In this document: one piece after another, positions 45,531-54,090 of the stretch
Numbering within the stretch: the first letter of the stretch is position 1
Layout: every line of letters starts with the position of its first letter
Sequence record: PQ374922.1
Origin: a phage
Length of the DNA: 64,000 nt
Direction: 5' to 3' (one strand)
Notes under the pieces: generated by a model
Databases searched by the model: none
Told to the model about the DNA's origin: nothing
Seen by the model: the letters and a program-made list of their open reading frames with translations, nothing else
Made by a program: the position numbers and the translations under genes

Positions 45531-47549
45531 ATGTCAGATTTTAAGCCCTTCGCAGTAGCTGTCAACAATAACGTGCTGGCCATGTCAGCAACTGGTCTGT
45601 TCATGACCAACATCGATAAAGATGCTCTGTGGGATCTGTATCTGTCTTCTTTCCCTGCTGGCACTAACCCGCTTTATCGTGAGCGTACCGAGCACGACTG
45701 TACCTGCTGCAAACAATTCATCCGTAACATCGGCGGTGTAGTCACCATCGACTCCGATCTGAACGTGATCTCTATCTGGGATAACATTCAGCTGGGTAAC
45801 GAATACGACGTTGTCGCTGCGGCGCTGTCAGCATATGTTAAGCAGCACGCAATCGTCGACGTGTACTTCAACGACACCAAGAAAGTTGGTGTTGAATCGA
45901 ATCACGAAATGAAAGACGGTATTGTCCGCACCTACAACCACTTCCACACCGACCTGCTGGGCAGCTATGTTCTGCGGGCAGATACCATCGCTTCTAAGAA
46001 GGGTGAAATCCGCCAGGCGATTGAAGTGTTTGAGCGCGGCCTGCGTGAACTGTCTCTGGAATCGGCTGAAATCGTTCTGGAATTGATCGACCAGAATTCT
46101 CTGTATCGCGGTGAAGAGCACAAAGCGGCAGTGCAGGCGTTCGTGGTGAACAAGACCCTGTACGAACAAACTGCAGAAGAGAAACGCGCTCTGTGGGCTT
46201 GGCGCACTGGCTACCGTGCAAACGGTCATACCCCTCACGGCATTCGTAATACCGTGATTGGCTCTCTGCTGGTAGACCTCAATGAAGGCCGGGATCTGGA
46301 AACCGCCGTGAAGTCCTTTGAAGCCAAAGTCGCTCCGACGAACTACAAGCGCCCAACCGCGCTGGTCACGAAATCCATGATTGAAAACGCGCAGAAAGAA
46401 GTCGAAGCGCTGGGTCTGACTGATTCACTGGGTCGCCGTTATGCCGTGTATGACGATCTGACCATCAACAACGTTCTGTTCGCCGACCTAGCAGCTCAGA
46501 AGAAGATGGACCCGTTTGCTCAGCTGGCGTCTGAAGTGAAGACTCCGACCAAGTCCCTGGACAAGGTTGAAGAGATCACGATCGACGACTTCCTGACCAA
46601 CGTGTTGCCAAAGGCGCATTCCCTGGAAGTGCTGGTCGAAAACTCTCACATTGGCAACCTGATGTCCCTGATCGCTCCGGCCACCGCAGGCGCTCCTAAC
46701 CTGTTCAAGTGGAACAACGGCTTCAGCTGGTCGTACAATGGCGAAGTGGCCGACTCCATCAAAGAGCGCGTGAAGACCGCAGGCGGCAATGTCGACAGCT
46801 TCCTCCGTGTGTCACTGGCTTGGCATAACAACGACGACCTGGATCTGAGCCTGAACGATCCTCTTCACAACCACGTGTATTATCACAACCGTCGTTCGAC
46901 AACTGGCGCAACTCTAGACATCGACATGAACGGTATGGACGGCATTGATCCAAACCGCCGTCCGGTGGAGAACATCTTCTTCAGCGATGAACGCAAGCTG
47001 CGTGATGGTCTGTACGAGTTCTATGTCACTAACTTCAGCCAGCGTGAAACCTGTGATATGGGCTTCGAAATCGAAGTTGAATACAAAGGCCAGACCAAGC
47101 GTTTTTCGCATCCTGGCCTGAAGCACAAAGATCGCACTCTGGCTGTTGTGATTGATGTCCGCGCTGGACAAGTGGTAGACATCCGTTCTACCCTGAAAGA
47201 CGACGCTCGCTCTCAGGAAATCTGGGGCATCAAGACCTCCGTCTTCCAGAAGGTACAGCTGGTTCTGAACTCACCAAACCATTGGGACGGCGAGCAGACT
47301 GGCAACAAGCACGTGTTCTTCATCCTGGAAGGTTGTGCTAACCCTGTCGGCACCCGTGGTTTCTATAACGAATATCTGAAGCCGGAACTTGATAAACACC
47401 GCAAGGTTTTTGAAATGTTAGGTGGTAAGATTAAAGTACAGCCAAGCACTGAGCAGCTGTCCGGTCTGGGCTTCTCTACCACCCAACGCAACCACGTGTT
47501 CGTGAAGGTGAGCGGTTCGTTCAACCGCACTGTGAAAGTTGTGTTCTAA
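45531..47549 (+). CDS. Large hypothetical protein (672 aa); weak ADP-ribosyltransferase-like signature in the C-terminal half
   Basis: RBS aggaag; R...STT...EIE spacing loosely reminiscent of R-S-E ADP-ribosyltransferases; not confirmed. Confidence 0.5.
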   Translation: MSDFKPFAVAVNNNVLAMSATGLFMTNIDKDALWDLYLSSFPAGTNPLYRERTEHDCTCCKQFIRNIGGVVTIDSDLNVISIWDNIQLGNEYDVVAAALSAYVKQHAIVDVYFNDTKKVGVESNHEMKDGIVRTYNHFHTDLLGSYVLRADTIASKKGEIRQAIEVFERGLRELSLESAEIVLELIDQNSLYRGEEHKAAVQAFVVNKTLYEQTAEEKRALWAWRTGYRANGHTPHGIRNTVIGSLLVDLNEGRDLETAVKSFEAKVAPTNYKRPTALVTKSMIENAQKEVEALGLTDSLGRRYAVYDDLTINNVLFADLAAQKKMDPFAQLASEVKTPTKSLDKVEEITIDDFLTNVLPKAHSLEVLVENSHIGNLMSLIAPATAGAPNLFKWNNGFSWSYNGEVADSIKERVKTAGGNVDSFLRVSLAWHNNDDLDLSLNDPLHNHVYYHNRRSTTGATLDIDMNGMDGIDPNRRPVENIFFSDERKLRDGLYEFYVTNFSQRETCDMGFEIEVEYKGQTKRFSHPGLKHKDRTLAVVIDVRAGQVVDIRSTLKDDARSQEIWGIKTSVFQKVQLVLNSPNHWDGEQTGNKHVFFILEGCANPVGTRGFYNEYLKPELDKHRKVFEMLGGKIKVQPSTEQLSGLGFSTTQRNHVFVKVSGSFNRTVKVVF

Positions 47550-47985: not shown

Positions 47986-48014
47986 GCAACCCCGCCATGT
48001 GCGGGGTTTCTTTT
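47986..48014 (+). terminator. Rho-independent terminator (aaccccgccatgtgcggggtttctttt)
   Basis: GC stem plus T-tract after stop at 47965. Confidence 0.65.
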
Positions 48015-48025
48015 GGACAAAGAAT

Positions 48026-48436
48026 ATGAAACTTGTCATCTGTGATTACTGCGGCCTCCTAGCCGAATTCGTCGGTGGTGATGTTCTCTACCCTCATCGC
48101 CCTGACCTCCGCAATCTGAAGTTCTGGGTTTGTACCCCATGTGATGCCCGTGTCGGTTGCCATGCCCATGGCGACGGCAGACAACCTCTGGGAAGGATGG
48201 CGAATGCCGCTCTCCGTGCCGAGAAGCAAAAAGCCCATAGATCGTTTGACCCATTATGGAAAGGCGGAGAGAGGAGCAGGAGCGACGCTTACAGTTGGCT
48301 GGCGCATAAGCTGGGGATAAAGAAGCGTGAGTGTCATATTGGCTTGTTCGATATCGACATGTGCCGTAAAGTAGTTGTTGTCTGTCAACAATACGAGGCA
48401 CATATCAATGTCAAAGGAAATACAAGAAGCGTTTGA
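48026..48436 (+). CDS. Zinc-ribbon hypothetical protein (136 aa)
   Basis: CDYC...CTPC cysteine pairs; ORF track begins upstream at 47999. Confidence 0.5.
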   Translation: MKLVICDYCGLLAEFVGGDVLYPHRPDLRNLKFWVCTPCDARVGCHAHGDGRQPLGRMANAALRAEKQKAHRSFDPLWKGGERSRSDAYSWLAHKLGIKKRECHIGLFDIDMCRKVVVVCQQYEAHINVKGNTRSV

Positions 48437-49025: not shown

Positions 49026-49031
49026 TATAAT
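49026..49031 (+). promoter_or_regulatory. Sigma70-like -10 hexamer TATAAT upstream of the Prs-like/Nampt-like pair
   Basis: Perfect TATAAT about 30 nt upstream of ATG 49063; upstream region also holds overlapping TTCAATA-like boxes. Confidence 0.4.
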
Positions 49032-49062
49032 ACGGCTGTACAATACACCATGAGGCTACATT

Positions 49063-49917
49063 ATGTTTCGTTTGAAATTGAACGACCAAGATGTGTTCTA
49101 CAAACACTTCACCTTCCCAGGTGGTGAGGAACATATCAAGATTCAAAAGTCTGGTATCCCTATCGGCCACGTTCAGAACGTGGCGATTGATGCTCACATC
49201 AAATCATCGGCTGACTTCATTGAGCTGGCGCTTCTGGTAAACGCCGTTCGTGGTCTGGGTAACGTGGACCGTCTGACGACATTCCATGCGTATATCCCTT
49301 ACTTCCCGTATGCTCGCCAGGACCGCCATTGTGACTTCGGTGAGCCTCTGTCTGTGAAGTGGGCGGCTGAGTTCATCAATAGCATGAACTTTGACCGCGT
49401 GGCGATCAAAGATCCTCACAGCCATGTTGTGTCTTCTCTGATCAACAACGTCCATGTTGTCCCGCAAGATTACATCGTGCGTCAGTATCTGGGCTGGTTC
49501 ATCCGTGGGAACAACGCTGTGTTGGTAGCCCCTGACGGCGGCGCGGCTAAGAAGACCGAAGCCCTCAGTCTGTCGTTGGACGGTGTTCCTGTTGTCTACG
49601 GTCACAAGAACCGTGACACCAAGACTGGTGAGATCATTGGGGTGAGTATTACGAACCCTGAACTGATCAAAGACCGCTATCTGGTGGTGGTCGATGATAT
49701 CTGCGACGGTGGGCGCACGTTCGTTGAGTTAGGCAAAGAGCTTCAGAAGCACAAGCCTAAGCACATGACGCTCTTCGTTACCCATGGCATCTTCAGCAAA
49801 GGTCTCTCTGTTTTCGACGGGATCTATGATGCTGTGTATGCCGACACTGTCTGGTGGGAGAACATCACCGCCGACGGGCTTCCTTTCAAAACTGAAAATA
49901 CAGGACGTGTAAAATGA
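49063..49917 (+). CDS. Ribose-phosphate pyrophosphokinase-family protein (Prs-like; candidate ADP-ribose pyrophosphate synthetase of NARP1)
   Basis: 284 aa; phosphoribosyl-binding loop LVVVDDICDGGRT (diverges from canonical DTGGT); RBS gagg. Confidence 0.8.
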   Translation: MFRLKLNDQDVFYKHFTFPGGEEHIKIQKSGIPIGHVQNVAIDAHIKSSADFIELALLVNAVRGLGNVDRLTTFHAYIPYFPYARQDRHCDFGEPLSVKWAAEFINSMNFDRVAIKDPHSHVVSSLINNVHVVPQDYIVRQYLGWFIRGNNAVLVAPDGGAAKKTEALSLSLDGVPVVYGHKNRDTKTGEIIGVSITNPELIKDRYLVVVDDICDGGRTFVELGKELQKHKPKHMTLFVTHGIFSKGLSVFDGIYDAVYADTVWWENITADGLPFKTENTGRVK

Positions 49918-51578
49918 GCATGCGCCACTTAGACCCAATCCATGCGATCGACTTCTACAAATCGGGGCACATCTATCAGTTCCCTGAAGGCAGTGAGCTG
50001 GTGTTCTCCAACGGAACTCCGCGCTCTAACAAACTGTTCAACTCTCACCTGCCGAAGAACGGCGTGGTGGTCTGGGGCATCCAGGGCTTCATGACCTGGT
50101 TCCACGAACTGTTTGACGAAGCATTCTTCCAGCGCCCGAAGGCCAAGGTGCTGAAGAAGTATGCCCGTCGCATGAACAAAGTCCTGGGTCCAGGCCGCGT
50201 CGGCACAGAGCATATTGAAGCCCTGCATGACCTCGGCTACCTGCCTATCGAAGTCCGTGCGCTGCCTGAAGGCACCATGTGTCCGTATGGCGTTCCGGTG
50301 TATGTGATGTTCAATACCCTGCCGGAGTTCTACTGGCTGACCAACTATCTGGAGACTGTGTTCAGCTCTGAGATCTGGAAGCCGATGACGAACGCCACCA
50401 TAGCTCTGCATTACAAGGCACTGATGGTGAAAGCTGCCCTCGCTACGGGAGTATCACCAGACCATTGGTTCATCGACTACCAAGGTCACGACTTCTCCTT
50501 CCGTGGTATGAGCGGGTGGCATGACGCCGCGTCTTCCGGTTCCGGTCATCTGGTGTTCTTCAAAGGCACCGACACCAACCCTGCCCTGGACTTCGTAGAA
50601 GAGTATTATGGCGCAGACATCGACGAAGACTATGTCGTTGCTGGGTCGGTTGCCGCAACGGAACATGCGGTGATGTGTATGGGCACGAAGGATGGTGAAT
50701 TCGAAACCTTCCGCCGCCTGGTGCAGGACGTGTATCCTGATGGCATCGTCAGCATCGTGTCTGATGCGTGGGATTACTGGCAGGTCATCGACGACTATCT
50801 GCCTCGCCTGAAAGACATTATCATGGCGCGCAATGGTAAAGTCGTGATCCGCCCCGACTCGGGCGACCCTGTACACATCGTCGGCGGCTACCGCATCGAG
50901 GGGTTCAAAGACCGCGCTACGCTGAACATCAGCGGCGTGTCTAGCAGCACCGAAGTTATCCACATCGAAGAGACGAACACCTATCACCTGATCACAGGCG
51001 AAGGCACGATCAACTCTCTGATGGCAGATGACCGTAATATCATCAGCCGTTCAGAAGCGGTCGGCTCTATCCAGCGCCTGTGGGAGATCTTTGGTGGCAC
51101 CCAGACTGAAACTGGGCACTTCCTGTTGGATGAGCACATCGGCCTGATCTACGGTGATTCTATCACCCTGGCGCGTGAAGACCAGATCTTTAGCCGTCTG
51201 GCTGACCGGAACTTCGCTTCCATCAACGTGGTGTTCGGTATCGGTTCCTACACCTACCAGATGAACACCCGTGACAGTACTGGCACAGCAGTGAAAGCCA
51301 CGGCTGGTAAAGTGAACGGTGAATTCCGTGAGATCTTCAAAGAGCCGAAGACCGATAAAGGCGGGACTAAAAAGTCTGCGCGTGGTTTCCTTAAAGTCAT
51401 TAAAGACCCTCAGGGTAAACTAGTGTTGGTTGACGGTATCACTTTTGATCAGGTGCAAGACGCCGACAACCAGCACCAGCTGGTGTATCGTGATGGCGAG
51501 TTCTTCAATACTCAAACACTGGAAGATGCGCGTGTTCGTGCTGCTCCTCTGGTGACGGAACTGGCATCACAAATCTGA
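49914..51578 (+). CDS. Nicotinamide phosphoribosyltransferase-family protein (Nampt/NadV-like; candidate nicotinamide ADP-ribose transferase of NARP1)
   Basis: 554 aa; DFYKSGH and RPDSGDP hallmarks of the Nampt family; start overlaps upstream stop (ATGA). Confidence 0.85.
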   Translation: MSMRHLDPIHAIDFYKSGHIYQFPEGSELVFSNGTPRSNKLFNSHLPKNGVVVWGIQGFMTWFHELFDEAFFQRPKAKVLKKYARRMNKVLGPGRVGTEHIEALHDLGYLPIEVRALPEGTMCPYGVPVYVMFNTLPEFYWLTNYLETVFSSEIWKPMTNATIALHYKALMVKAALATGVSPDHWFIDYQGHDFSFRGMSGWHDAASSGSGHLVFFKGTDTNPALDFVEEYYGADIDEDYVVAGSVAATEHAVMCMGTKDGEFETFRRLVQDVYPDGIVSIVSDAWDYWQVIDDYLPRLKDIIMARNGKVVIRPDSGDPVHIVGGYRIEGFKDRATLNISGVSSSTEVIHIEETNTYHLITGEGTINSLMADDRNIISRSEAVGSIQRLWEIFGGTQTETGHFLLDEHIGLIYGDSITLAREDQIFSRLADRNFASINVVFGIGSYTYQMNTRDSTGTAVKATAGKVNGEFREIFKEPKTDKGGTKKSARGFLKVIKDPQGKLVLVDGITFDQVQDADNQHQLVYRDGEFFNTQTLEDARVRAAPLVTELASQI

Positions 51579-51585
51579 TAACCGA

Positions 51586-51610
51586 AGGGGAGGCAACTCC
51601 CCTGTTTTGA
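51586..51610 (+). terminator. Rho-independent terminator (aggggaggcaactcccctgtttt)
   Basis: GC stem plus T-tract after stop at 51578. Confidence 0.65.
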
Positions 51611-51680
51611 GGGAAACCTGATGTCTGTGAAGACCGTTATTAAATCCCAACAGGGCTTCGTCTCTGTTAAGTGAGATCAA

Positions 51681-51896
51681 ATGATACTGAAAGAATGTTT
51701 TACCGACCTGAAGGCGACGTCTGAAAGTATTCCGGCTTGCATTCAGAACTATGCTCCAAAGGATGTGCTCTTGGCTCAGCTGGAGCAGTCTCGTGAATTT
51801 ATCAACAATATGCTGGACTCTGTAAAGACGCGCATCGAAGCCGCTGATGAGTCTGAACTTAACCCTTACGCACAAGGCGAAGAAAACAATGATTGA
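51681..51896 (+). CDS. Small hypothetical protein (71 aa)
   Basis: Weak RBS; overlaps the start of the vWA gene by 8 nt. Confidence 0.35.
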   Translation: MILKECFTDLKATSESIPACIQNYAPKDVLLAQLEQSREFINNMLDSVKTRIEAADESELNPYAQGEENND

Positions 51897-54090
51897 ATCA
51901 TTAGAATTTAAGAATGCGGTTGCGACTGCTGCCCCGTCCAACCATGTAATCGTTGTAGACATTTCCGGCTCTATGTACCGTGCGCTCCCTGAAGTCCGCA
52001 AGCACCTGAAGGAGAACCTGCCATCCCTGGTGAAACCGGAAGACACTGTGAGTGTTCTATACTTCTCATCCAAAGGCGACTTTGGTACTGTGTTCGCTGG
52101 CCGTCAGATCAATGCAGCATCCGACCTGAGCGAAATCAACAATCTGATTGACCGCTTCCTGAAACCGTCTGGTTGCACTGGCTTTGTTGAGCCGTTGAAA
52201 CTGGCGATGGACACTGCTCGTGGCCTGAAGAAGCCTGGCTATGTCAACAACCTGGCGTTCATGACTGACGGGTATGACAACTGCTGGCGTACCAACGAAA
52301 TTCTACTGGTTGCTGAGACCCTGCCATTTGCTTTCGATAACATTACATTTATTGAATATGGCTGGTACTGTAACCGCGAACTGCTGGCGCAGATGGCCGA
52401 ACGCTCTGGTGCTACTCACGTGTTTGCCGAAGGTCAGACCGAATACCAGACCGAACTGGAAAACGTGCTGAAGTCATCAGTGCCGAAGGTGAAAGTTGAT
52501 GTCCCAGTCATCTACACCCATGCCATCTACGTCGAAAACGGTGTGGCAACAGTACTGGCGGTGCAGGACGATGACTCTCACCCGGTCGGCTATGTGAGCA
52601 TCCCTGAGAGCATCACCAAGCTGTGGGTTGTAAACCCTAACATGATCGACCAGCTTGATGCGCTGGCGGATATCCAGGCGGCATACGTGCTGGCGTTCTA
52701 CGGCGTACACATCATGGACGCGGACCTGGTGTGGGCTGCACTGAAGAAAACGGGTGACGTTCGCTTCATCAAACAGTACAGCAACTGCTTCACCAAGCAG
52801 GACTACTCCAACATCAAGAACGATCTGGTTCAGGCGATTGTTGACGACCAGCTGCGCGGCGTTGACGGTATTGACTATGACCTGGTTCCGGCTGAAGATG
52901 CGACCACCGTCGTTGATGTGCTGACGTACCTGGCTGAAGCTGGTGTGCCTGTTGCTACCAAGCATCCGATGTTCTCCTATAAGAGCATCGGGCGCGGTAC
53001 TGTGCAGAAAACCGACGACACCGAAGACAAGCTGGCAGAACAGATCGCGAATGCTCAGTCCAAAGAAGAGCGTAAAGCCCTGGCTCTCAAGCTGGCAGAA
53101 CACGAAGAGTGGAACCCGACGTTCGAACCTACCAACGACCTGGGTGTTGTGCCAATCAGCGATTTGGTCTATAACTCCGAGCGCCCGAACATCAGTGTGC
53201 GTACAATTCAACACGGTACTGTGGCTGTGCCTGAATTCGCACAGAAGAAGTTTGGCCTGCCTGAAGAACTGGACACTTTCCAGTGGCGCAACTACACCAT
53301 CGTCAAAGACGGCATCATCAACGTGAAGACTCTGCCGTTCAAGGCTGATATCGAAGTTGTACAGAAGCTGATCGAAATGGGCGTCCACGTGTTTGGTGGT
53401 CCGGAAGTGTTCATCCTGAACCTGGAAAGCGTACCACTGGTCAACCGCGCCATGGTCAAGAACATCAGTGCTGCTCAGTTCTTTGCGGATAATGTCCGTT
53501 TGGAAGCCCTGAAAGGCAAGCAGAAGGTGCTGAAGTTCTATCGAGACGCCCTGGTTGGTAAGGGTAACGCCAAAGGCCTGGCAGTACAGTACGGTGCTGA
53601 GGCGGCCGAGTTCCTGTCCTCCTACGGTATCCGCGATTACGGCTTCTCACCGAAGACTGAGACCAAAGAGTCTACCGACTTCTACATGAGCCGTGAGCTG
53701 AACGTTAAGATCGCCGGGGCGTCTTCACTACCGAGCATCGCGGCAGTACAGAAGAAGATCGCAGAGAATAAGAAACTCAATGCTGGTGACTTGTTTATCG
53801 CCAATGCTCTGAAAGAGTACGAAGCATTCGTGAAGTCTCCTATGATCACTGCCGTGCCTGAAGCCTTACAGAAACAGCTGATCGAAAACTGGATCGACGC
53901 TGCTGCCAAGGCGGCCATCACCGAAGTCCGTGCCCTGAACAAGACACTGTCTAAAGTGGTGTATGGTATCGTTGCTGGCCACGGCTGGTTCACCGACCTC
54001 GACCTGGAAGAGTCCACCATGGAAGTTGAAGTGGATGGCGTGAAGTACAAGGTCACTGCCGAACTGACAGAGAAAGAAATCAAAATCTAA
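51889..54090 (+). CDS. von Willebrand factor type A (vWA) domain protein (733 aa)
   Basis: N-terminal MIDAS-like VIVVDISGSMY (DxSxS); long C-terminal region unrecognised; start chosen at second in-frame ATG. Confidence 0.6.
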   Translation: MIESLEFKNAVATAAPSNHVIVVDISGSMYRALPEVRKHLKENLPSLVKPEDTVSVLYFSSKGDFGTVFAGRQINAASDLSEINNLIDRFLKPSGCTGFVEPLKLAMDTARGLKKPGYVNNLAFMTDGYDNCWRTNEILLVAETLPFAFDNITFIEYGWYCNRELLAQMAERSGATHVFAEGQTEYQTELENVLKSSVPKVKVDVPVIYTHAIYVENGVATVLAVQDDDSHPVGYVSIPESITKLWVVNPNMIDQLDALADIQAAYVLAFYGVHIMDADLVWAALKKTGDVRFIKQYSNCFTKQDYSNIKNDLVQAIVDDQLRGVDGIDYDLVPAEDATTVVDVLTYLAEAGVPVATKHPMFSYKSIGRGTVQKTDDTEDKLAEQIANAQSKEERKALALKLAEHEEWNPTFEPTNDLGVVPISDLVYNSERPNISVRTIQHGTVAVPEFAQKKFGLPEELDTFQWRNYTIVKDGIINVKTLPFKADIEVVQKLIEMGVHVFGGPEVFILNLESVPLVNRAMVKNISAAQFFADNVRLEALKGKQKVLKFYRDALVGKGNAKGLAVQYGAEAAEFLSSYGIRDYGFSPKTETKESTDFYMSRELNVKIAGASSLPSIAAVQKKIAENKKLNAGDLFIANALKEYEAFVKSPMITAVPEALQKQLIENWIDAAAKAAITEVRALNKTLSKVVYGIVAGHGWFTDLDLEESTMEVEVDGVKYKVTAELTEKEIKI

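What the first reader, a model, noticed from the sequence alone, without database searches (positions are those of the whole stretch)
49063..51578. Prs-like + Nampt-like gene pair resembling the phage NAD+ reconstitution pathway NARP1
Two translationally coupled genes (stop-start overlap ATGA at 49914-49917) encode a short ribose-phosphate pyrophosphokinase-family protein (284 aa) and a nicotinamide phosphoribosyltransferase-family protein (554 aa, RPDSGDP motif). The Prs-like protein has a non-canonical phosphoribosyl loop (DDICDGGRT rather than DxxDTGGT). This pairing and size match the architecture reported for NARP1, where the Prs-like enzyme pyrophosphorylates ADP-ribose and the Nampt-like enzyme joins nicotinamide to regenerate NAD+, countering NAD+-depleting defences such as Thoeris, DSR and SIR2-type systems. 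No NMN adenylyltransferase, which classical Nampt-based salvage would need, is visible in the window.
Basis: partly seen in the sequence, partly recalled or inferred. Interest (0 to 1): 0.8.

Follow-up and report, generated by a model that had tools for sequence, protein, structure and literature searches.

The report
Phage NAD+ rebuilding gene pair (NARP1)
These two overlapping phage genes are a typical copy of NARP1, a known two-enzyme pathway that rebuilds NAD+ from the fragments left by NAD+-destroying bacterial defences, and near-identical copies in the same phage genus are already listed in the paper that discovered the pathway.

Summary

**What is there.** The window comes from an Agtrevirus (Ackermannviridae), 97-99% identical over aligned blocks to E. 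coli phage LHE287. ORFs 49063-49917 (284 aa) and 49914-51578 (554 aa) overlap by ATGA.

**First protein.** It groups with validated Adps enzymes: 36% identity to Bas63 Adps, with the same DDICDGGRT loop, and the catalytic Lys is conserved as K182. It falls below NCBI's cellular Prs thresholds.

**Second protein.** It groups with validated Namat:
- It is 43% identical to Bas63 and SPbetaL1 Namat, against 28% to a KVP40-type Nampt.
- An AlphaFold model matches PDB 9w5x best.
- 19 of 20 NAD+-contact residues are kept.
- It carries the Namat-type motif GSYTYQMNTRD.

**Context.** No NMN adenylyltransferase was found in the window or in the whole LHE287 genome. No Macro-domain or RyR-domain accessory gene lies among the seven flanking ORFs. 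Both genes are under strong purifying selection (dN/dS 0.01-0.14). A relative, RPN242, lost exactly these two genes by deletion.

**Prior knowledge.** Osterman et al. 2024 list the orthologues in SKML-39 (98-99.5% amino-acid identity) in their Adps/Namat tables. An Ackermannviridae review already links these genes to escape from NAD+ depletion.

**Not yet described.** Two minor features are Met at one adenine-stacking position and an ordered 58-residue insertion. The enzymes from this genus have not been tested biochemically.

The parts
49063..49917 (+). adps: ADP-ribose pyrophosphate synthetase, a Prs-family protein of 284 aa
   Evidence: ORF. phrog_619 at 1.9e-90. 36-41% identity to Gram-negative phage Adps including the validated Bas63, against 27% to E. 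coli Prs. TIGR01251 score of 104 bits is below the 113-bit cutoff. dN/dS 0.03-0.14.
49914..51578 (+). namat: nicotinamide ADP-ribose transferase, a Nampt-family protein of 554 aa
   Evidence: ORF. PDB Namat 9w5x at E 3.7e-135, against 5e-51 for human NAMPT. 43% identity to Bas63 and SPbetaL1 Namat. AlphaFold model pLDDT 93.3, best fold match 9w5x with TM 0.95. dN/dS 0.01-0.05.
49914..49917 (+). ATGA stop/start overlap, which suggests translational coupling of adps and namat
   Evidence: Read directly from the sequence.
49606..49608 (+). Codon for Adps Lys182, equivalent to the catalytic K162 of SPbetaL1 Adps, whose K162A mutant is inactive
   Evidence: Global alignment mapping. Mutant data from Osterman et al..
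49693..49719 (+). Adps loop DDICDGGRT, equivalent to the ribose-5-phosphate loop DDMIDTGGT of Prs
   Evidence: Identical in Bas63 Adps. Present in 96 of the 120 top homologs. Differs from DDLSSFGGT in SPbetaL1 and DDLSSYGGT in FADO.
50025..50039 (+). Namat selectivity-clamp loop (SCL), residues 38-42, SNKLF
   Evidence: Aligns with Bas63 SDKWF and SPbetaL1 TSRVE. The third residue is Lys, one of the R/K/Y options named by Lan et al. K-L at positions 3-4 occurs in 20 of 120 homologs.
50664..50666 (+). Codon for Namat His251, within the conserved ATEH[AS] motif that Nampt-family enzymes use for the catalytic histidine
   Evidence: Motif ATEHA. H251 is invariant in the 88-sequence alignment.
50850..50870 (+). 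RPDSGDP motif. R313 and D315 are equivalent to R306 and D308 of SPbetaL1 Namat; the R306G and R306A mutants are inactive
   Evidence: Residue mapping. Mutant data.
50889..51062 (+). 58-residue insertion (Namat residues 326-383), absent from solved SPbetaL1 Namat and from Nampts
   Evidence: Gap in the PDB alignment. MAFFT alignment. AlphaFold predicts an ordered alpha/beta element with pLDDT 86-97. dN/dS 0.02-0.20. The same site is expanded in Bas63 and in about half of the homologs.
51243..51275 (+). Namat selectivity-clamp helix motif (SCH), residues 444-454, GSYTYQMNTRD
   Evidence: Matches the Namat consensus GS-X-Phi-X-Phi-X-Phi-TRD. Position 3 is Tyr. Position 7 is Met instead of Tyr, a variant seen in 13 of 120 homologs.
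49026..49055 (+). Possible expression signals: TATAAT at 49026-49031 and GAGG at 49052-49055, the latter 7 nt before the ATG
   Evidence: Read from the sequence. Conserved in RPN242, which lost the genes. The consensus scan did not call a promoter here because there is no -35 match, so confidence is low.

Best explanation
The two genes are a functional core NARP1 operon of an Agtrevirus phage.

**Proposed mechanism.** When a host NAD+-depleting defence (SIR2, TIR or SEFIR-type effectors in systems such as Thoeris, DSR1/2 or SIR2-HerA) cleaves NAD+ into ADP-ribose and nicotinamide, two steps follow:
1. Adps uses ATP to pyrophosphorylate ADP-ribose to ADPR-PP.
2. Namat replaces the pyrophosphate with nicotinamide, giving NAD+ directly with no NMN intermediate and no adenylyltransferase.

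The ATGA overlap suggests the two enzymes are made together.

**Shown here:** gene structure, family and clade placement, conservation of catalytic and NAD+-contact residues, absence of Nmnat, purifying selection, and the accessory presence/absence pattern.

**Inferred by homology:** the actual substrates, products and counter-defence phenotype. These were demonstrated for Bas63, SPbetaL1 and FADO and, per the later preprints, for Gary and DyoEdafos, but not for any Agtrevirus.

**Prediction.** The locus lacks the Macro-domain phosphatase Adpp, so it should not rescue the phage from aRES-type defence, which yields ADPR-1''-phosphate.
For: **Anatomy:**

**Adps**
- Pairwise scores to validated or listed Adps are 130-189 bits, against 73 bits to E. 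coli Prs.
- phrog_619 scores: window 304, Bas63 333, SPbetaL1 248, E. coli Prs 193.
- It falls below all NCBIfam Prs cutoffs, as SPbetaL1 Adps does.
- K182 corresponds to the catalytic K162.
- DDICDGGRT is identical to Bas63.

**Namat**
- PDB Namat 9w5x scores 455 bits, against 177 bits for NAMPT.
- In the phage-wide tblastn, Namat-type relatives score 37-47% identity and KVP40-type Nampts 28-29%.
- 19 of 20 NAD+-contact positions equal SPbetaL1 or Bas63.
- SCH and SCL are of Namat type.
- The AlphaFold model is closest to 9w5x/9w5w, with TM 0.95 and rmsd 2.1 A.

**Context**
- No Nmnat in the window or the LHE287 genome.
- dN/dS 0.01-0.14.
- RPN242 lost the pair by deletions confined to the two genes.

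**Literature**
- The SKML-39 orthologues are in Osterman Tables S1 and S2.
- Mechanism and mutants.
- Clamp definition.
- Agtrevirus presence/absence and the link to NAD+ defence.
Against: - No enzyme or phage-genetics data exist for any Agtrevirus or Ackermannviridae NARP1; none was found in the searches.
- One of the two SCH adenine-stacking aromatics is Met (M450 instead of Tyr396). The residue after the SCL Lys is Leu rather than the Trp of Bas63, so the clamp is not identical to either characterised enzyme.
- Identity to the biochemically purified SPbetaL1 Adps is only 32.5%, and no Adps structure or published specificity determinant exists to test against.
- Namat enzymes can also make NMN from PRPP in vitro, and E. 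coli has NadR and PncC. Absence of a phage Nmnat therefore does not by itself exclude an NMN route.
Confidence: 0.88

Rival explanations
1. Classical two-step nicotinamide salvage that leans on the host. The Prs-like enzyme makes PRPP and the Nampt-like enzyme makes NMN. The E. coli enzymes NadR, or PncC with NadD and NadE, then finish NAD+ synthesis, so no phage adenylyltransferase is needed.
For: - Database annotation of all relatives as ribose-phosphate pyrophosphokinase and nicotinamide phosphoribosyltransferase.
- The second protein passes the NCBIfam equivalog NF006629 (473 bits, cutoff 405).
- Namat retains PRPP-dependent NMN synthesis in vitro.
- M450 replaces an adenine-stacking Tyr.
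Against: - The validated Namats pass the same NCBIfam model (468 and 594 bits), so it does not discriminate.
- The first protein fails every cellular Prs cutoff, and the SPbetaL1 homolog gave a product only with ADP-ribose and ATP, which the authors take as showing it is not a Prs.
- The window's Namat keeps the position-3 aromatic and the SCL Lys, which are the clamp elements whose joint mutation is most damaging (R40A/F392G, 16.6-fold).
- The true NMN-forming HdNadV lacks aromatics at both positions.
Confidence: 0.07
2. A general nucleotide-metabolism booster. The pair raises PRPP and pyridine-nucleotide supply for phage DNA replication, alongside the phage's other nucleotide genes, with no role in counter-defence.
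For: - The genome carries many nucleotide-metabolism genes, including ribonucleotide reductase, thymidylate synthase and dUTPase.
- Sorensen et al. 2023 filed the pair under nucleotide metabolism.
Against: - The same clade and motif evidence applies as for the first rival.
- The pair is dispensable and patchy within the genus (8 of 14 genomes; deletion in RPN242; fusion in Ag3). That pattern fits an accessory counter-defence module better than core metabolism.
- NARP1 phages did not raise NAD+ in defence-free cells.
Confidence: 0.03
3. A decaying, non-functional remnant of NARP1.
For: Relatives show decay: RPN242 has two internal deletions, Ag3 has an Adps::Namat fusion ORF, and Dickeya phiD3 retains only the C-terminal 20%.
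Against: In the window both ORFs are full length. All catalytic residues are intact. dN/dS is 0.01-0.14 against SKML-39 and EspM4VN.
Confidence: 0.02

Closest known systems
NARP1 of Escherichia phage Bas63 (JohannRWettstein; genes 79-80), validated in vivo by Osterman et al. 2024
   Same: - Adps followed by Namat on the same strand.
- Identical Adps loop DDICDGGRT, and the catalytic Lys is conserved.
- Same SCL length and Lys-type clamp (SNKLF against SDKWF).
- SCH motif of the same type (GSYTYQMNTRD against GSYTYQYMTRD).
- An insertion at the same site after RPDSGDPVHIV.
- No Nmnat was found in the window or in the complete genome of its close relative LHE287.
   Different: - Only 36% (Adps) and 44% (Namat) identity.
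- The genes overlap by ATGA here but are 45 bp apart in Bas63.
- The insertion is 58 aa here against about 100 aa in Bas63.
- SCH position 7 is Met against Tyr, and SCL position 4 is Leu against Trp.
NARP1 of Bacillus phage SPbetaL1 (Adps WIT26982, Namat WIT26983; PDB 9w5x and 9w5w), biochemically and structurally characterised
   Same: - Namat is 43% identical.
- The fold match is TM 0.95 with rmsd 2.1 A.
- Catalytic residues D13, Y15, F194, R197, D220, R313 and D315 are conserved.
- Adps K162 corresponds to K182.
   Different: - SPbetaL1 Namat has no 58-aa insertion and has an Arg-type SCL.
- SPbetaL1 Adps has a different loop (DDLSSFGGT) and is only 32.5% identical.
Orthologous pairs in other Agtrevirus and Ackermannviridae phages (SKML-39, AV101, ChubbyThor, MK-13, EspM4VN, Klebsiella 0507-KN2-1)
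   Same: - Same locus, same flanks, 92-99% DNA identity.
- SKML-39 proteins are 98.2% and 99.5% identical.
- Already listed in Osterman Tables S1 and S2 and noted by Sorensen et al. 2023.
   Different: Nothing of substance. This window is another isolate of the same module.
NARP2 (Nampt plus Nmnat of Vibrio phage KVP40)
   Same: The second enzyme belongs to the same Nampt superfamily (phrog_448), and both pathways rebuild NAD+ from nicotinamide.
   Different: - NARP2 uses PRPP and needs an Nmnat, and no Nmnat is present here.
- A KVP40-type Nampt (VH7D) is only 28.5% identical and has the Nampt-type loop GMGGGLLQQLDRD.
NARP1-AP (Adps-Adpp-Namat of Vibrio phage Gary) and the RyDEP-containing NARP1 locus of mycobacteriophage DyoEdafos
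   Same: Same core two enzymes.
   Different: None of the seven ORFs flanking the pair has a Macro or RyR (PF02026) domain in Pfam or PHROG scans. This is the minimal two-gene form.
Bacterial nrtR-prs-nadV operons (Rodionov et al. 2008) and bacterial NARP1 (Lan et al. 2026)
   Same: The closest cellular homologs (44% for Adps, 50% for Namat) are adjacent pairs with the DDICDGG loop and the Namat-type SCH motif.
   Different: They are chromosomal, sit next to an ADP-ribose-responsive NrtR regulator, and probably serve housekeeping. The Fibrella Namat homolog lacks the insertion, but the Motilimonas one has an expansion at that site.

Membership tests
NARP1 pathway (Osterman et al. 2024) | An Adps-clade Prs homolog is present | tested here: met
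   - Closer to Bas63, JohannJBalmer and Aeromonas P19 Adps (130-189 bits) than to E. coli Prs (73 bits).
- phrog_619 score of 304 lies within the range of validated Adps (248-333) and above Prs at 193.
- The 98.2%-identical SKML-39 protein is in Table S1 with Namat nearby marked 'Yes'.
NARP1 pathway (Osterman et al. 2024) | A Namat-clade homolog lies in the immediate vicinity of adps (97% of the clade) | tested here: met
   The genes are adjacent with a 4-bp overlap. The SKML-39 orthologue is labelled 'Adps-associated' in Table S2.
NARP1 pathway (Osterman et al. 2024) | Adps catalytic lysine (SPbetaL1 K162) | tested here: met
   Maps to K182 in GHKNRD.
NARP1 pathway (Osterman et al. 2024) | Adps converts ADP-ribose plus ATP to ADPR-PP and does not make PRPP | not testable with these tools
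   Needs an enzyme assay. The only indirect support is failure of the cellular Prs model cutoffs.
NARP1 pathway (Osterman et al. 2024) | Deleting the pair sensitises the phage to NAD+-depleting defences, independently of host PncC and NadR | not testable with these tools
   Needs phage genetics. I found no such data for Ackermannviridae.
Namat (Lan et al. 2026) | Conserved Nampt-like catalytic core (SPbetaL1 F189, D215, R306, D308, Y15', D13', catalytic His) | tested here: met
   F194, D220, R313, D315, Y15, D13 and H251 are all conserved.
Namat (Lan et al. 2026) | SCH motif GS-X-Phi1-X-Phi2-X-Phi3-TRD with adenine-contacting aromatics at positions 3 and 7 | tested here: inconclusive
   - The motif GSYTYQMNTRD has the correct length and frame, with Tyr at position 3.
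- Position 7 is Met rather than an aromatic.
- Met occurs at this position in 13 of 120 close homologs, and His and Phe also occur.
- Nampt-type loops are longer (GMGGGLLQ..RD).
- The true NadV of H. ducreyi has Gln and Arg at positions 3 and 7.
Namat (Lan et al. 2026) | SCL loop whose third residue is Arg, Lys or Tyr, supplying a stacking residue | tested here: met
   - The loop is SNKLF with Lys at the third position, the same length as Bas63 SDKWF.
- The fourth residue is Leu rather than Trp.
- K-L is the second commonest combination among homologs, at 20 of 120.
Namat (Lan et al. 2026) | Preference for ADPR-PP over PRPP | not testable with these tools
   Needs a competition assay.
NARP2 (Nampt plus Nmnat) | An NMN adenylyltransferase is encoded in the same genome (94% of the clade) | tested here: not met
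   tblastn, phmmer and a five-member NadR-type profile (E. coli NadR plus four phage proteins), with E. coli NadD also used as a tblastn and phmmer query, were run against six-frame ORFs of the window and of the complete LHE287 genome. The best E-value was about 0.5. None is annotated.
NARP1-AP (extended pathway with the Adpp phosphatase) | A Macro-domain protein within two genes of the pair | tested here: not met
   Pfam and PHROG scans of seven flanking ORFs gave only DUF3268, VWA and families of unknown function. HHpred-level sensitivity was not available.
Cellular ribose-phosphate diphosphokinase (Prs) | Scores above the curated NCBIfam Prs cutoffs | tested here: not met
   TIGR01251 gives 104 bits against a cutoff of 113, and PRK01259 gives 82 against 297. 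E. coli Prs scores 423 and 532 on the same two models.

The most novel reading that the evidence does not exclude
The Agtrevirus Namat may be a functionally distinct sub-type. Its altered adenine clamp (Met450 and Leu41) could widen or shift donor specificity to ADP-ribose derivatives other than ADPR-PP. Its ordered 58-residue insertion next to the RPDSGDP active-site strand could provide a docking surface that channels the labile ADPR-PP from Adps. That would differ from SPbetaL1, where no stable complex between the two enzymes was seen.
Probability: 0.08. Interest if true: 0.45.

Novelty: already known. Interest (0 to 1): 0.15.

Why it matters
It confirms that this E. coli Agtrevirus carries a broad-spectrum counter-defence module. 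That is practically relevant for predicting host range and choosing therapeutic phages against strains armed with NAD+-depleting systems. The lack of Adpp also predicts a specific weakness against aRES-type defence. It adds nothing conceptually new, because the pathway, its enzymes, the structural basis of Namat specificity and the presence of the pair in this phage genus are all published.

Tried and rejected
- **Nmnat elsewhere in the genome.** I searched the window and the whole LHE287 genome with E. coli NadD and NadR, four phage NadR-type proteins and a NadR-type profile. Only noise came back.
- **Accessory NARP1 genes nearby.** I looked for Macro-domain Adpp and RyR-domain RyDEP among seven flanking ORFs and found none.
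- **Dedicated NCBIfam models for Adps or Namat.** None exist, and the Nampt/NAPRT equivalog model does not separate Namat from Nampt. phrog_448 likewise lumps Namat with KVP40-type Nampt.
- **Foreign composition.** GC is 0.49-0.56, the same as the flanks.
- **Promoter and terminator scan.** Nothing exceeded the shuffle expectation, and no promoter was called directly upstream.
- **A solved Adps structure or published Adps specificity determinants.** None were found.
- **The insertion as a novelty of this window.** I rejected this because the same site is expanded in Bas63 and in about half of the close homologs.
- **Met450 as evidence against Namat membership.** I rejected this as decisive because Met recurs in the family and single Y396 changes had modest effects in Lan et al..
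- **The second structure job.** I did not model Adps, because without a ligand-bound reference the model could not discriminate between substrates.
Full report
**1. Observation**

The window holds two + strand ORFs, 49063..49917 (284 aa) and 49914..51578 (554 aa). The sequence TAAAATGAGC places the ATG of the second ORF at 49914-49916 and the TGA of the first at 49915-49917, so the ATGA overlap is real.
- Pfam assigns ORF1 to Pribosyltran and Pribosyltran_N, and ORF2 to NAPRTase.
- PHROGs assigns them to phrog_619 (1.9e-90) and phrog_448 (2.2e-193).
- RPDSGDP (residues 313-319) and DDICDGGRT (residues 211-219) are present as described.

**2. Where the window comes from**

The 2.5-kb locus is 99.0% identical to Escherichia phage LHE287, 97.9% to AV101 and 95.2% to Salmonella phage SKML-39. 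SKML-39 is classified as Agtrevirus (Ackermannviridae, Aglimvirinae). Over 50 kb of the window aligns to LHE287, in blocks that are mostly 97-99% identical. The two genes sit in a long co-directional array between hypothetical genes. Upstream is a 672-aa phrog_1735 protein followed by small ORFs, one of which is a DUF3268 zinc-finger protein. Downstream are a 71-aa ORF and a 747-aa VWA-domain protein.

**3. What defines the known system**

Osterman et al. (bioRxiv 10.1101/2024.02.11.579819) described NARP1.
- A Prs-like enzyme (Adps) turns ADP-ribose plus ATP into ADPR-PP. A Nampt-like enzyme (Namat) then joins nicotinamide to give NAD+.
- The pathway was validated in vivo for Bas63 and FADO and in vitro for SPbetaL1. 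Inactive mutants are Adps K162A and Namat R306G.
- 97% of Adps-clade genes have a Namat neighbour, and 859 phage genomes carry the pair.
- NARP2 is the alternative pathway, a KVP40-type Nampt plus Nmnat.

Lan et al. (PMC12774641) solved SPbetaL1 Namat and defined a selectivity clamp. It consists of an SCL loop (third residue R, K or Y) and an SCH motif GS-X-Phi-X-Phi-X-Phi-TRD with adenine-contacting aromatics at positions 3 and 7. The double mutant R40A/F392G is the most damaging.

Two 2026 preprints add accessory genes found in some NARP1 operons: the Macro-domain phosphatase Adpp, which acts against aRES, and the RyR-domain glycosidase RyDEP.

**4. Tests on the first protein (Adps)**

I fetched full-length Bas63 and SPbetaL1 proteins from their genome records and E. 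coli Prs.

| Comparator | Identity to window protein | Bits |
|---|---|---|
| Bas63 Adps | 36% | 130 |
| JohannJBalmer Adps | 40% | 189 |
| Aeromonas P19 Adps | 41% | 148 |
| SPbetaL1 Adps | 32.5% | 95 |
| E. coli Prs | 27% | 73 |

(All.)

- **phrog_619 scores:** window 304, Bas63 333, SPbetaL1 248, E. coli Prs 193.
- **NCBIfam:** the window protein falls below the generic Prs model cutoff (104 against 113) and far below every equivalog. The validated SPbetaL1 Adps does too (106). E. coli Prs scores 423.
- **Catalytic residue:** SPbetaL1 K162 aligns with K182.
- **Loop:** The Gram-positive validated enzymes instead have DDLSS[FY]GGT.

The loop therefore marks a sub-clade of Adps and is not a universal Adps signature. 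No Adps structure is in the PDB by sequence search.

**5. Tests on the second protein (Namat)**

*Sequence and fold comparisons*

| Comparator | Result |
|---|---|
| PDB Namat 9w5x/9w5w | E 3.7e-135 |
| H. ducreyi NadV (PDB 9ke8) | E 6e-105 |
| Mammalian NAMPT | E 5e-51 |
| Bas63 and SPbetaL1 Namat | 43% identity to each |
| KVP40-type Nampt of phage VH7D | 28.5% identity |

- A tblastn census of 50,697 phage records is bimodal. Namat-type relatives fall at 37-47% identity and NARP2-type Nampts at 24-29%.
- An AlphaFold2 model built on an 88-sequence alignment (mean pLDDT 93.3, pTM 0.92) matches solved Namat best (TM 0.95, rmsd 2.1 A). H. ducreyi NadV comes next and NAMPT third.

*Active site and selectivity clamp*
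- Of the 20 SPbetaL1 residues that contact NAD+, 19 are identical to SPbetaL1 or to Bas63 in the window protein. The exception is Y396, which is M450 here.
- The SCH motif is GSYTYQMNTRD. For comparison, Bas63 has GSYTYQYMTRD, SPbetaL1 has GSFTYQYNTRD, KVP40-type Nampt has GMGGGLLQQLDRD, and H. ducreyi NadV has GAQTYQRNTRD.
- All but one of the 120 best homologs carry a recognisable Namat-type motif. Position 7 is mostly Tyr, but Met occurs 13 times, and His and Phe also occur.
- The SCL is SNKLF, of the Bas63 Lys type. K-L at positions 3-4 occurs in 20 of 120 homologs.

I therefore score the SCH feature as inconclusive by the strict published wording and met in substance.

**6. The insertion**

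Residues 326-383 (50889-51062) have no counterpart in SPbetaL1 Namat or in Nampts.
- The model predicts an ordered small alpha/beta element with pLDDT 86-97.
- It is under purifying selection, with dN/dS 0.02-0.20.
- The same site is expanded in Bas63 (about 100 aa) and in roughly half of the close homologs.
- Neither paper's text discusses it.

It is a family feature of unknown role, not a peculiarity of this window.

**7. Partner genes**

No Nmnat is annotated in LHE287. I ran a direct search with E. coli NadD and NadR, four phage NadR-type proteins and a profile built from the five NadR-type sequences, against six-frame ORFs of the window and the complete LHE287 genome. Nothing scored better than E of about 0.5. 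This fails the defining feature of NARP2.

It does not by itself exclude an NMN route through host NadR or PncC. That rival is argued against instead by clade placement, the clamp, and the Bas63 delta-pncC delta-nadR result. No Macro or RyR domain is present in the seven flanking ORFs, so this is the minimal two-gene form.

**8. Functional state and boundaries**

- Against SKML-39 and EspM4VN, dN/dS is 0.03-0.14 for adps and 0.01-0.05 for namat, with no internal stops.
- The Aglimvirinae phage RPN242 is collinear on both sides (96-98% identity) but lacks window positions 49209-51038 and 51184-51626. It keeps the upstream region and the first 49 or so codons of adps.
- Shigella phage Ag3 carries a 547-aa Adps(1-222)::Namat(226-554) fusion ORF, which is what the odd chimeric phrog_12872 represents.
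- Dickeya phiD3 keeps only the C-terminal fifth of namat.
- Sorensen et al. found the pair in 8 of 14 Agtrevirus genomes.

The module is therefore exactly these two genes. It is intact and constrained here, and dispensable in the lineage, which is the pattern expected of an accessory counter-defence module. Composition is not foreign. The consensus scan found no promoter or terminator signal above expectation. A TATAAT at 49026-49031 and a GAGG 7 nt before the ATG are visible but untested.

**9. Novelty**

- Osterman et al.'s Table S1 is the Prs/Adps homolog table, with a column for 'Namat within 10 genes'. It lists SKML-39, Ag3 and Klebsiella phage 0507-KN2-1 with 'Yes'.
- Their Table S2 labels the SKML-39 Namat 'Adps-associated'.
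- The SKML-39 proteins are 98.2% and 99.5% identical to the window's.
- The 2024 Ackermannviridae review (PMC11721090) explicitly links the NAMPT and RPPK genes of Agtrevirus phages to evasion of NAD+-depleting defence, citing Osterman et al..

What remains untested is the biochemistry and phenotype in this genus.

**10. Verdict**

This is a functional core NARP1 operon (confidence about 0.88). The rivals are host-dependent NMN salvage (0.07), a general metabolic booster (0.03) and a decaying remnant (0.02). Interest is low.

The only open questions are small: the role of the ordered insertion, the effect of Met450 on the clamp, and the structural basis of Adps specificity.

One side lead lies outside the window. 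The closest cellular homologs are adjacent pairs next to NrtR regulator genes. That is the nrtR-prs-nadV arrangement of Rodionov et al. 2008, whose repressor is released by ADP-ribose and whose 'second prs paralog' the authors called unexplained.

Noticed in passing
L013 3361-6467 (Fibrella aestuarina HE796683.1); L014/L015 4978-8462 (Motilimonas): The closest cellular homologs of the window's two proteins are adjacent chromosomal pairs next to an NrtR-type regulator gene (NUDIX plus WHD_NrtR). They carry the DDICDGG loop and the Namat-type SCH motif. This is the nrtR-prs-nadV arrangement of Rodionov et al. 2008 (PMC2330246), where ADP-ribose releases the repressor and the dedicated second prs paralog was called unexplained. 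NARP1 chemistry, in which ADP-ribose is both inducer and substrate, would explain it. No paper in the library holds both 'NrtR' and 'NARP1'.
   Followed up: partly
window 49209-51038 and 51184-51626, compared with L016 (Escherichia phage RPN242) 5864-6134: A related Aglimvirinae phage lost NARP1 through two internal deletions that leave the upstream region, about 49 codons of adps and a 130-bp namat fragment. The flanks are collinear at 96-98% identity.
   Followed up: yes
P0129 (Shigella phage Ag3, 547 aa); phrog_12872: Ag3 carries an Adps(1-222)::Namat(226-554) fusion ORF, which is probably a deletion derivative. The chimeric PHROG family 12872, annotated as 'nicotinamide phosphoribosyl transferase', is built on such sequences, which is why it matches both window proteins.
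   Followed up: partly
window 50889-51062 (Namat residues 326-383): An ordered 58-residue insertion lies after the RPDSGDP strand. It is absent from the solved Namat and is variably expanded at the same site in many Gram-negative phage Namats, including Bas63. The two key papers do not discuss it.
   Followed up: partly
Vibrio phage ICP1 records (H28, H76/H77, H124): ICP1 genomes have an Adps-like gene, a Namat-like gene and a NadR-like (Nmnat/RNK) gene. T5-like Salmonella and E. coli phages carry NadR-like plus PnuC-like genes. Phage NAD+ toolkits therefore combine in more ways than NARP1 or NARP2 alone.
   Followed up: no
window 51847-54090 and 45531-47549: The pair is flanked by large conserved proteins of unknown function: a 747-aa protein with an N-terminal VWA domain (phrog_2426) and a 672-aa protein (phrog_1735). 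Both are retained in RPN242, which lost NARP1, so they are independent of the module.
   Followed up: partly
window 47999-48436: A 145-aa ORF with a DUF3268 zinc-finger-containing domain (1.4e-35) lies about 0.6 kb upstream of adps on the same strand. Its function is unknown.
   Followed up: no
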